A stretch of DNA of 64,000 nucleotides, taken from assembly GCF_013167455.1 (NCBI RefSeq), contig NZ_CP038328.1. One strand, 5' to 3'. The DNA is from Escherichia coli O157:H7. GTDB lineage: Bacteria > Pseudomonadota > Gammaproteobacteria > Enterobacterales > Enterobacteriaceae. Shown one piece after another: positions 28,480-29,778 of this stretch. Every line of letters starts with the position of its first letter. The stretch's first letter is position 1. A program made the position numbers and the translations under genes. The notes beneath the pieces were generated by a model. That model saw only the letters and a program-made list of their open reading frames with translations. It ran no database searches and was not told the origin of the DNA.

Positions 28480-29778
28480 ATGACGATTGCGAAGGATAGT
28501 TCGACTGATGAAATCATTCATGGAAATGATCTCCGTGGAATGGATGATTTTTACATTAAGACAACGAGTTTTGAATGCCCATACGAGCCTTGTAAAATTA
28601 AAGCCACACCTTGTAGTTTTACTATGAAACATGTTAATCAATCATATTTCAGATATGGCGATAAACATAAGGATGGATGTGGTATTCATGATCCAAGATA
28701 TAAAAACAATCATACTTCAAATGACGAAAGAAAACATAATTCGCCACCTGCTCCGGTTATATCACTTTTAAAAATTGATGTGAAACCAAGAGGTGGTGTT
28801 AAAAATGCCAGAAATATTAAAAATGAAAATCACAAGGATGAAAAAAAAGGTAATGAACATCCTGTATCTTCATCAAGTATTAAGCCAGTCGTTGACTATT
28901 ACATAAATAATAGCAATCATAATGAACAGCTATCAATCCCTCCATATGGCACGCGATCTTATAAAGATACATTTCAACTTATTTTTTACAAAAACAACAT
29001 ACGTTATTACAAACCTGCTATTTATTATGGTGTAGCCCAGTCTAATATTCGTCTGCATGAAGATTCAGATAAACATTGTATTACTTTCCTCGCAAGGGAT
29101 AAGAAAACCCAAAAACCATTTACGCTTGAAATTGATGTTTCTGACTGGAATAAAAGTCAGAAGGATGTGTTTTGGAAGGAATATGAAAAGCAAAGGAAGG
29201 AAGCTGATAGGTATTATAAGGGGCTTAAAGATAAAAGGAATGCTAAAAAATACTTGACGGTTTTCTTTTTTGGGATGCCGGATGAAAATGATAAGTTTCT
29301 ATTTAAGACAAACCACTTTAAATTAGTATATGTGGCTTTCTTGGGTAAATTTGAAAGCTCATATAATGATAGTAATTATTACATTGAAAATGATCTGTCT
29401 GTATCATCATTGAATGAACAACCCATTTCATTATCTGATATAGACCATAAAAATCATGAATATAATATTGAAACTTCATTAGATTTTAGTTCTCCTTTGC
29501 CAGAGCCAGAGCCAGAGCCAGAGCCAGAGCCAGAGCCAGAGCCAGAGCCAGAGCCAGAGCCAGAGCCAGAGCCAGAGCCAGAGCCAGAGCCAGAGCCAGA
29601 GCCAGAGCCAGAGCCAGAGCCAGAGCCAGAGCCAGAGCCAGAGCCAGAGCCAGAGCCAGAGCCAGAGCCAGAGCCAGAGCCAATAAGATCCTCTTTAAAG
29701 GAAAATACTGAGACTGTAGAAATGAACAGTAAAGTTTGGGGGAGGCTGAAAAAGATAATCACTTTCTTTAAAAAGTGA
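28480..29778 (+). CDS. Hypothetical 432-aa protein with Cys/His-rich N-terminus and about 30 tandem Pro-Glu dipeptides
   Basis: ORF with N-terminal C-x3-C...C...H...C-G-x-H pattern and a (PE)n tract encoded by the hexamer repeat at 29500-29681. Confidence 0.55.
29500..29681 (+). repeat. (CCAGAG)n hexanucleotide microsatellite, about 30 units, in frame within a CDS
   Basis: Perfect tandem gccaga repeats readable directly in the sequence. Confidence 0.95.

What the first reader, a model, noticed from the sequence alone, without database searches (positions are those of the whole stretch)
29500..29681. Perfect (CCAGAG)n hexanucleotide microsatellite of about 30 units inside a coding sequence
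Long perfect hexamer arrays are uncommon in enterobacterial genes. The unit is 6 nt, so slippage changes the length of the (PE)n linker without frameshifting, giving a length-variable protein. The opposite strand would encode (GS)n or (LA)n.
Basis: seen in the sequence. Interest (0 to 1): 0.4.

Follow-up and report, generated by a model that had tools for sequence, protein, structure and literature searches.

The report
Known O157 typing repeat (TR2/O157-10)
The perfect 30-unit CCAGAG repeat is real, but it is the long-known, hypervariable typing marker TR2/Vhec1/O157-10 of E. coli O157:H7, sitting in frame in the flexible linker of an uncharacterised mobile-element protein, so it is ordinary and already explained.

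Summary
Window 29500-29679 is (CCAGAG)30 plus a terminal CCA, perfect, and in frame in the 432-aa ORF 28480-29778 (+), where it codes (PE)30P.

The window is E. coli O157:H7, prophage Sp17 region, and the gene is ECs_3507. Published TR2 primers (unit TGGCTC) match exactly on both sides of the array. It is therefore the MLVA locus TR2 = Vhec1 = O157-10, the most unstable O157 VNTR. Its measured mutation rate is about 1e-4 to 5e-4 per generation per strain, and PulseNet dropped it for being too variable.

Among 313 complete genomes carrying the gene I found perfect alleles of 4 to 52 units with identical flanks.

New context:
- The protein core is a divergent Avs8B (PD-lambda-4 B)-like zinc-ribbon plus OB-like domain under purifying selection.
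- The array lies in a predicted disordered linker ahead of a basic C-terminal helix.
- Orthologues carry only (PE)2-5.
- A second E. coli paralogue has an independent (GCTGAGGTT)24-48 array at the same position.

Whether length variation is selected or merely tolerated remains open. Novelty: already known.

The parts
29500..29682 (+). (CCAGAG)30 + CCA perfect hexanucleotide array, coding P341-(EP)30. This is MLVA locus TR2 = Vhec1 = O157-10.
   Evidence: primers; unit TGGCTC in PMC2246123 Table 2; name equivalence in PMC3768571 Table 1
28480..29778 (+). CDS of the repeat-bearing protein (432 aa here), the orthologue of ECs_3507 of strain Sakai, annotated as hypothetical protein.
   Evidence: orthologues; dN/dS
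28480..29409 (+). Core of about 310 aa: an N-terminal zinc-ribbon-like part and a beta-rich OB-like domain, separated by a low-confidence loop (aa 78-123). It is a divergent member of the Avs8B / PD-Lambda-4_B family.
28576..28680 (+). Stretch containing the four invariant residues C33, C38, H63 and C67, a putative CCHC zinc site.
   Evidence: invariant in a 58-sequence family alignment; zinc binding is inferred
29410..29499 (+). Non-repetitive acidic, Ser-rich part of the linker (aa 311-340), ending in the conserved L-P-E-P-E-P seed.
   Evidence: low pLDDT in the model; LPEPEP conserved in Xenorhabdus, Yersinia and Pantoea
29683..29775 (+). C-terminal tail (aa 402-432, [31 protein letters not shown]). 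The predicted terminal helix is aa 420-431 (29737-29772). It is basic and hydrophobic.
   Evidence: helix 368-379 of the 380-aa allele model; similar tails in long-form family members; the amphipathicity test was not significant
29195..29212 (+). Binding site of published TR2 primer GGAAGGAAGCTGATAGGT.
   Evidence: exact match; primer from PMC2246123 Table 2
29799..29816 (-). Binding site of published TR2 primer CGCAGTTGATACCTACGG (622-bp amplicon in this window).
   Evidence: exact match; primer from PMC2246123 Table 2

Best explanation
The array is the E. coli O157:H7 VNTR locus TR2/Vhec1/O157-10. It is a perfect hexanucleotide microsatellite that gains and loses whole units at high frequency, most likely through slipped-strand mispairing during replication. 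One unit equals two codons, so every allele stays in frame, and the encoded protein (ECs_3507 orthologue) carries between 4 and at least 52 Pro-Glu dipeptides. The repeat sits in a predicted disordered spacer between a conserved, selectively constrained core and a short basic C-terminal helix, a position where length changes are tolerated. The core is a CCHC zinc-ribbon plus OB-like domain related to Avs8B. The array grew from a short L-P-E-P-E-P seed, (CCAGAG)2-5, that is conserved in orthologues of other genera. Shown here: the identity with the typing locus, the variation among genomes, the in-frame coding, purifying selection on the core, and the seed motif. Taken from the literature: the per-generation mutation rates. 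Inferred: the slippage mechanism, the disorder of the linker, and that the length variation is mostly neutral.
For: The TR2 primers match 18/18 on both sides, and the unit TGGCTC is a rotation of the reverse complement of CCAGAG. The equivalence TR2 = Vhec1 = O157-10 is given in PMC3768571. The window matches O157:H7 Sp17, gene ECs_3507. Alleles of 4, 22, 24, 29, 30 and 52 units are all perfect with identical flanks. A spread sample of 55 genomes holds 28 alleles, and near-isogenic genomes differ by 1-6 units. PMC3777172 reports 41 of 57 VNTR mutations at O157-10, rates of 1.3e-4 to 4.8e-4 per generation per strain, both single- and multi-unit gains and losses, and exclusion of the locus by PulseNet. 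PMC3519732 reports Vhec1 alleles of 21-45 units. Orthologues have (PE)2-5 with the same CCAGAG codons. Core dN/dS is 0.15-0.18. The AF2 model has pLDDT below 50 across the linker and a terminal helix.
Against: No read-level or expression data for this strain were available, so within-culture heterogeneity and translation of the protein are not shown here. The spread sample is taken along a ranking that correlates with allele size, so the diversity index (0.95) is inflated. Neutrality is an assumption. A paralogue has independently acquired a different long perfect array at the same linker position, which could indicate selection for variable length rather than mere tolerance.
Confidence: 0.9

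Rival explanations
1. Selected length variation. The linker acts as an adjustable spacer or ruler between the DNA-binding-type core and the C-terminal helix (possibly a membrane or partner anchor). Hypermutable in-frame arrays are then favoured because they create population heterogeneity in the function of a protein linked to defence islands and mobile elements.
For: Independent perfect arrays occupy the same linker position in the family. (CCAGAG)n varies from 4 to 52 units. (GCTGAGGTT)24-48, coding (AEV)n, occurs in a 61%-identical E. coli paralogue next to Qat-type genes, with 8 alleles in 9 genomes. Contigs or scaffolds break inside (GAACCT)n in Pectobacterium and inside (CCAGAG)n in a 24%-identical Vibrio protein. 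Family members lie next to defence-type genes.
Against: No phenotype is known. Avs8B itself is dispensable for Avs8 defence. Complete deletion of the O157-10 array arose in culture, and null alleles occur in isolates. Most long-form family members have non-repetitive linkers. A complete Photobacterium paralogue has only (QP)3. Disordered linkers commonly tolerate repeats without any selection.
Confidence: 0.12
2. Assembly artefact. The array length, or the array itself, results from mis-assembly of reads.
For: Short-read assemblies do break at this locus, and more than 1000 database copies of the protein are annotated as partial.
Against: The array is present in 313 complete genomes, with integer-unit alleles and identical flanks. 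PCR fragment sizing and sequencing in several laboratories report the same locus and allele range.
Confidence: 0.02
3. The biologically relevant product is read from the minus strand, as a (GS)n or (LA)n protein.
For: Minus-strand ORFs of 102 and 65 aa span the array.
Against: These ORFs barely extend beyond the repeat. The plus-strand protein is conserved over its full length in Xenorhabdus, Providencia, Yersinia, Pantoea and others, with core dN/dS of 0.15-0.18 and a conserved tail after the repeat.
Confidence: 0.01

Closest known systems
MLVA/VNTR locus TR2 (Noller 2003) = Vhec1 (Lindstedt 2003) = O157-10 (Keys 2005) of E. coli O157:H7
   Same: It is the same locus. The published primers flank it exactly, the 6-bp unit is the same (TGGCTC on the other strand), and it shows the same very large and variable alleles.
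   Different: Nothing differs at the DNA level. The typing literature I could read treats it only as a marker and does not describe the protein.
Neighbouring locus TR1 = Vhec4 = O157-9 (VNTR-9), window 31024-31094
   Same: It is a perfect 6-bp array in the same Sp17 region, 1.3 kb away, and is used in the same typing schemes.
   Different: The unit is TATTTC/AAATAG with 11.8 copies. It is not in a currently annotated gene and is less unstable. It is often absent (null alleles) because of IS-mediated deletions.
Simple-sequence contingency loci (phase variation) of Haemophilus, Neisseria and Campylobacter
   Same: Slipped-strand mispairing in a perfect short tandem repeat inside a gene, with high reversible mutation rates.
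   Different: Those repeats have units of 1, 2, 4, 5 or 7 nt that shift the frame and switch genes on and off. Here the unit is 6 nt, so only the linker length changes and there is no on/off switch.
Pro-Glu spacers: the TonB (EP)n-(KP)n region and trypanosome EP procyclin
   Same: (Glu-Pro)n dipeptide runs that are thought to form extended spacers. The Pfam PARP model hits the repeat (E 8.5e-5).
   Different: The match is compositional, not homologous. The protein has no signal peptide or transmembrane segment at its N-terminus (read from the sequence), and there is no evidence that it spans a compartment.
Avs8B (PD-lambda-4 gene B), the second gene of the Avs8 STAND anti-phage system
   Same: The core domain is homologous. 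The direct PADLOC hit has E 1.9e-7, and there are transitive full-length links. The function is likewise unknown.
   Different: Avs8B is about 303 aa with no linker, repeat or C-terminal helix. No Avs8A STAND NTPase lies next to this gene. Avs8B is dispensable for defence.

Membership tests
MLVA locus TR2/Vhec1/O157-10 | Published TR2 primer pair brackets the array | tested here: met
   Both primers match 18/18, at 29195-29212 (+) and 29799-29816 (-), with 0 matches expected by chance. Primers are from PMC2246123 Table 2.
MLVA locus TR2/Vhec1/O157-10 | 6-bp unit TGGCTC | tested here: met
   TGGCTC is a rotation of CTCTGG, the reverse complement of CCAGAG.
MLVA locus TR2/Vhec1/O157-10 | Located in E. 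coli O157:H7, and highly polymorphic with large alleles | tested here: met
   313 of 5426 complete E. coli genomes carry the gene, nearly all labelled O157. Alleles range from 4 to 52 units. The literature reports ranges of 21-45 units and alleles above 22 units.
MLVA locus TR2/Vhec1/O157-10 | Equivalence of the three names | not testable with these tools
   Taken from PMC3768571 Table 1 and PMC2246123. The original Lindstedt, Noller, Keys and Vogler papers were not held.
Avs8B / PD-Lambda-4_B protein family | Significant match to the PADLOC model PDLC03992 | tested here: inconclusive
   The direct hit is partial (aa 151-284 to model positions 161-294 of 303, E 1.9e-7). phmmer hits of the O157 core (P0031, P0060, P0073) match the model over its full length at 1.7e-46 to 2e-92. 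This supports superfamily membership, as a divergent long-form branch.
Avs8B / PD-Lambda-4_B protein family | Encoded in an operon with the Avs8A STAND NTPase | tested here: not met
   The neighbours are three recombinase-like genes, two small genes of unknown function and a BamE-like lipoprotein gene. There is no STAND NTPase.
Phase-variable contingency locus | Repeat unit not divisible by 3, so that slippage switches expression on and off | tested here: not met
   The unit is 6 nt. All six alleles read keep the frame and the same C-terminal tail.
Phase-variable contingency locus | High-frequency reversible change in repeat number | tested here: met
   Differences among near-isogenic genomes. 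Measured rates of 1.3e-4 to 4.8e-4 per generation with both gains and losses (PMC3777172).
Gamma-mobile-trio (GMT) element (for the adjacent three recombinase-like genes) | Matches to the GmtY/GmtZ/GmtX models above cut-off | tested here: not met
   There are only weak GmtY hits (20.9-22.3 bits against a cut-off of 340). The best match is NF041502 integrase_1 at 320.5 bits, below its cut-off of 350. The third gene has no hit.

The most novel reading that the evidence does not exclude
Hypervariable linker length may be a selected property of the long-form Avs8B-like protein family. Different lineages have independently installed long, perfect, in-frame arrays at the same spot between the zinc-ribbon/OB-like core and the C-terminal helix: (CCAGAG)n coding PE, (GCTGAGGTT)n coding AEV, and probably (GAACCT)n coding EP. 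This would give clonal populations a spread of spacer lengths in a protein encoded on mobile elements and next to anti-phage systems. It would be a frame-preserving analogue of contingency loci.
Probability: 0.12. Interest if true: 0.55.

Novelty: already known. Interest (0 to 1): 0.2.

Why it matters
As a DNA feature it matters only practically. It is the most discriminating and least stable O157:H7 typing marker, and it breaks short-read assemblies. More than 1000 database copies of the protein are truncated at the repeat.

The modest new points concern the protein. The marker lies in the disordered linker of a conserved protein of the Avs8B (PD-lambda-4 B) superfamily, which is under purifying selection and whose function is unknown. 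A paralogue in about 5% of complete E. coli genomes carries a second hypervariable array, apparently undescribed in the papers I could search, at the same position. If linker length proved functional, these two natural allelic series (4-52 PE units and 24-48 AEV units) would be ready-made material for testing what Avs8B-like proteins do.

Tried and rejected
- **Pfam on the full protein:** only a compositional hit of the repeat to trypanosome PARP/procyclin. There was no Pfam hit for the 4-unit allele or for the family.
- **NCBIfam:** only compositional DnaX tau hits, far below cut-off.
- **PHROGs:** only unknown-function families, overlapping the repeat and linker.
- **PDB sequence searches:** nothing, with either the protein or the family profile.
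- **Hydrophobic-moment test of the C-terminal tail:** not above shuffles for the O157 protein (126 of 500 shuffles reach it). I describe the tail as basic and hydrophobic and do not claim a membrane-targeting amphipathic helix.
- **A defence role via PD-Lambda-4_B:** rejected as evidence, because Avs8B is dispensable for defence.
- **GMT membership of the recombinase trio:** not met.
- **Photobacterium (QP)n contig end:** a complete paralogue has only (QP)3, so a long array there is not demonstrated.
- **Literature search for the 9-bp repeat sequence:** nothing found. This is weak negative evidence only.

Full report
**Observation.** The sequence at 29500-29679 is thirty perfect CCAGAG units followed by CCA. 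Tandem Repeats Finder reports 29499-29682 with period 6, 30.7 copies, 100% matches, no indels and score 368. The array is in frame in ORF 28480-29778 (+), 432 aa, and codes P341-(EP)30. The minus-strand ORFs reading (GS)n and (LA)n exist, but they hardly extend beyond the repeat.

**Where the window comes from.** The ORF matches 313 of 5426 complete E. coli genomes, always on the chromosome and almost all labelled O157:H7. In strain Sakai it is ECs_3507, a hypothetical protein annotated within prophage Sp17. One genome, FRIK804, matches the whole 1299 bases in one piece.

**Identity with a named locus.**
- Murphy et al. (PMC2246123, Table 2) list Noller's TR2 primers with repeat unit TGGCTC.
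- Both primers match the window exactly, at 29195-29212 (+) and 29799-29816 (-), bracketing the array.
- TGGCTC is a rotation of the reverse complement of CCAGAG.
- PMC3768571 Table 1 equates TR2 with Vhec1 and O157-10.
- The second perfect array in the window, (TATTTC)11.8 at 31024-31094, is bracketed by the TR1 primers. It is also bracketed by the PulseNet VNTR-9 primers, which I recalled from memory and which match 27/27 and 31/31. It is therefore TR1 = Vhec4 = O157-9.

**Variation.**
- Reading six loci gives 30 units (window), 24 (Sakai), 52 (strain 472), 4 (F6321), and 22 and 29 in two strains not labelled O157. All are perfect and have identical flanks.
- Spans in an evenly spaced sample of 55 genomes give 28 alleles, from 4 to 40 units with a median of 21. 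The best-hit list adds 48, 50 and 52. This sample follows a ranking that correlates with allele size, so the diversity value of 0.95 is inflated.
- Closely related genomes differ by a few units: strains 115/117/139/141 have 22/25/20/19, and FRIK2533/FRIK2455 have 16/15.
- In serial-passage experiments, 41 of 57 VNTR mutations fell at O157-10. Rates were 1.3e-4 to 4.8e-4 per generation per strain, with single- and multi-unit gains and losses and occasional loss of the whole array. PulseNet excluded the locus as too variable (PMC3777172).
- Field isolates show 21-45 units (PMC3519732).

**The protein.**
- *Family databases.* There is no Pfam family beyond a compositional procyclin hit on the repeat, and no PDB relative by sequence.
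- *Link to Avs8B.* PADLOC gives PD-Lambda-4_B for aa 151-284 (E 1.9e-7). An exhaustive search with the 340 non-repeat residues finds 66 representative clusters. Several of these match the PD-Lambda-4_B model over its full length at 1e-46 to 1e-92. The core is therefore a divergent member of the Avs8B superfamily.
- *What is known of Avs8B.* It has no known function and is dispensable for Avs8 defence (bioRxiv 10.1101/2025.07.02.662641). This homology does not assign a defence role.
- *Conserved residues.* A 58-sequence alignment has four invariant residues, C33, C38, H63 and C67.
- *Structure model.* The AlphaFold2 model of the 4-unit allele (mean pLDDT 81, pTM 0.75) has a confident core, a disordered stretch covering the linker and repeat, and a terminal helix.
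- *Selection.* Core dN/dS against orthologues is 0.15-0.18, so the plus-strand frame codes for a constrained protein.
- *C-terminal tail.* It is basic and hydrophobic in all long-form members, but its helical amphipathicity does not exceed shuffles.

**Origin of the array.** Orthologues carry a short seed at the same place:
- Xenorhabdus has (CCAGAG)5.
- Yersinia has (CCAGAG)2 plus CCA.
- Pantoea has (CCTGAG)2 plus CCTGAA.
- A 93%-identical protein has (PE)2.

Each seed is preceded by Leu and followed by the tail. The long array is thus an expansion of a conserved LPEPEP motif.

**Genomic setting.**
- The gene lies in an AT-rich block (29-37% GC over 22400-29600, against about 45-54% in the flanks). 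The block has three tandem recombinase-like genes (23020-27174), two small genes of unknown function and a BamE-like lipoprotein gene, and is cut off by an IS30 remnant.
- Pantoea has the same module.
- In Yersinia and Pectobacterium the gene is next to a relaxase gene.
- Distant family members lie next to BrxR/SNF2/DUF1156 genes or GASH/DO-GTPase genes.

**A family-level pattern.**
- Many database homologues are annotated as partial at about 310-345 aa.
- Contigs end inside (GAACCT)n in Pectobacterium and inside (CAGCCA)n in Photobacterium. A scaffold gap or contig end follows (CCAGAG)2.5 in a Vibrio protein only 24% identical to the O157 one. A complete Photobacterium paralogue has only (QP)3, so that case is weak.
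- A second E. coli paralogue has a 61%-identical core, occurs in 253 of 5426 complete genomes, and sits next to KAP-NTPase, QatB, QueC-like and TatD genes. It carries (GCTGAGGTT)n, coding (AEV)n, at the same linker position, followed by the tail KIWTGIRKLISFFKK. In nine complete genomes the array has 24, 25, 26, 27, 27, 33, 39 and 48 perfect units. The ninth record has 42 units (28 + 14) around a disruption and is annotated frameshifted.
- I found no paper containing this 9-bp repeat sequence.

**Interpretation.** The best explanation is replication slippage in a perfect microsatellite placed in a length-tolerant disordered spacer. This is exactly the known behaviour of O157-10. The recurrence of independent arrays at the same position leaves open, at low probability, that variable spacer length is itself selected.

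**Verdict.** The feature is already known as a typing marker, so interest is low. A small residual interest attaches to the uncharacterised Avs8B-like protein family and its repeat-prone linker.

Noticed in passing
window 31024-31094: A second perfect hexamer array, (TATTTC)11.8. It is bracketed exactly by the TR1 primers and the PulseNet VNTR-9 primers, so it is MLVA locus TR1/Vhec4/O157-9. It lies between the IS30 remnant and the HNH endonuclease gene and is not in a currently annotated CDS. The 86-aa ORF 30969-31229, reading (LF)n, is probably spurious.
   Followed up: yes
L018-L029 (E. coli paralogue, for example L026:1501-3009): A 61%-identical paralogue of the repeat protein, present in 253 of 5426 complete E. 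coli genomes and next to Qat-type defence genes. It carries an independent perfect 9-bp array, (GCTGAGGTT)24-48 coding (AEV)n, at the same linker position, with 8 alleles in 9 genomes. It breaks draft assemblies: its database cluster has 907 members, and every named member listed is annotated partial. No paper containing this sequence was found.
   Followed up: partly
window 23020-27174 (and 22400-29800): Three tandem recombinase-like genes of 403, 441 and 543 aa. The first two are tyrosine recombinases and the third has no family hit. They head an AT-rich block (about 29-37% GC) that also carries the repeat gene. The same trio-plus-cargo module occurs in Pantoea ananatis (L007). It does not meet the GMT model cut-offs. 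Its boundaries and mobility were not examined.
   Followed up: partly
L014, L015/L016, L017: Draft assemblies of Photobacterium toruni, Vibrio sp. 10N and Pectobacterium aquaticum end, or have a scaffold gap, inside (CAGCCA)n, (CCAGAG)n and (GAACCT)n respectively, at the homologous linker position. This suggests further long arrays in the family. The Photobacterium case is doubtful, because a complete paralogue has only (QP)3.
   Followed up: partly
window 22005-22092: An imperfect 12/24/36-bp repeat (77-80% matches) coding a Pro/Asn/Asp/Lys-rich stretch near the end of the 1356-aa ORF 18327-22397. This corresponds to the ypjA adhesin autotransporter gene of Sakai.
   Followed up: no
L009 (strain 2159), corresponding to window 30200-31300: In strain 2159, two IS1203 copies replace most of the IS30 remnant, the VNTR-9 region and the downstream phage genes. 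This illustrates how the frequent VNTR-9 null alleles (31.7% in PMC3321953) can arise while the TR2 array (40 units there) is kept.
   Followed up: partly
window 29854-30249 (-): A small BamE-domain lipoprotein gene (ECs_3506, phrog_3135) lies immediately downstream and convergent to the repeat gene. The same pairing is seen in Xenorhabdus bovienii (L006), which suggests a conserved two-gene unit.
   Followed up: no
window 30192-30947 (-): A truncated IS30 transposase gene (251-aa ORF, annotated partial in Sakai) separates the AT-rich element from the remnant lambdoid genes (HNH endonuclease, NinG, Ser/Thr phosphatase, Q). The early region of prophage Sp17 is missing here.
   Followed up: no
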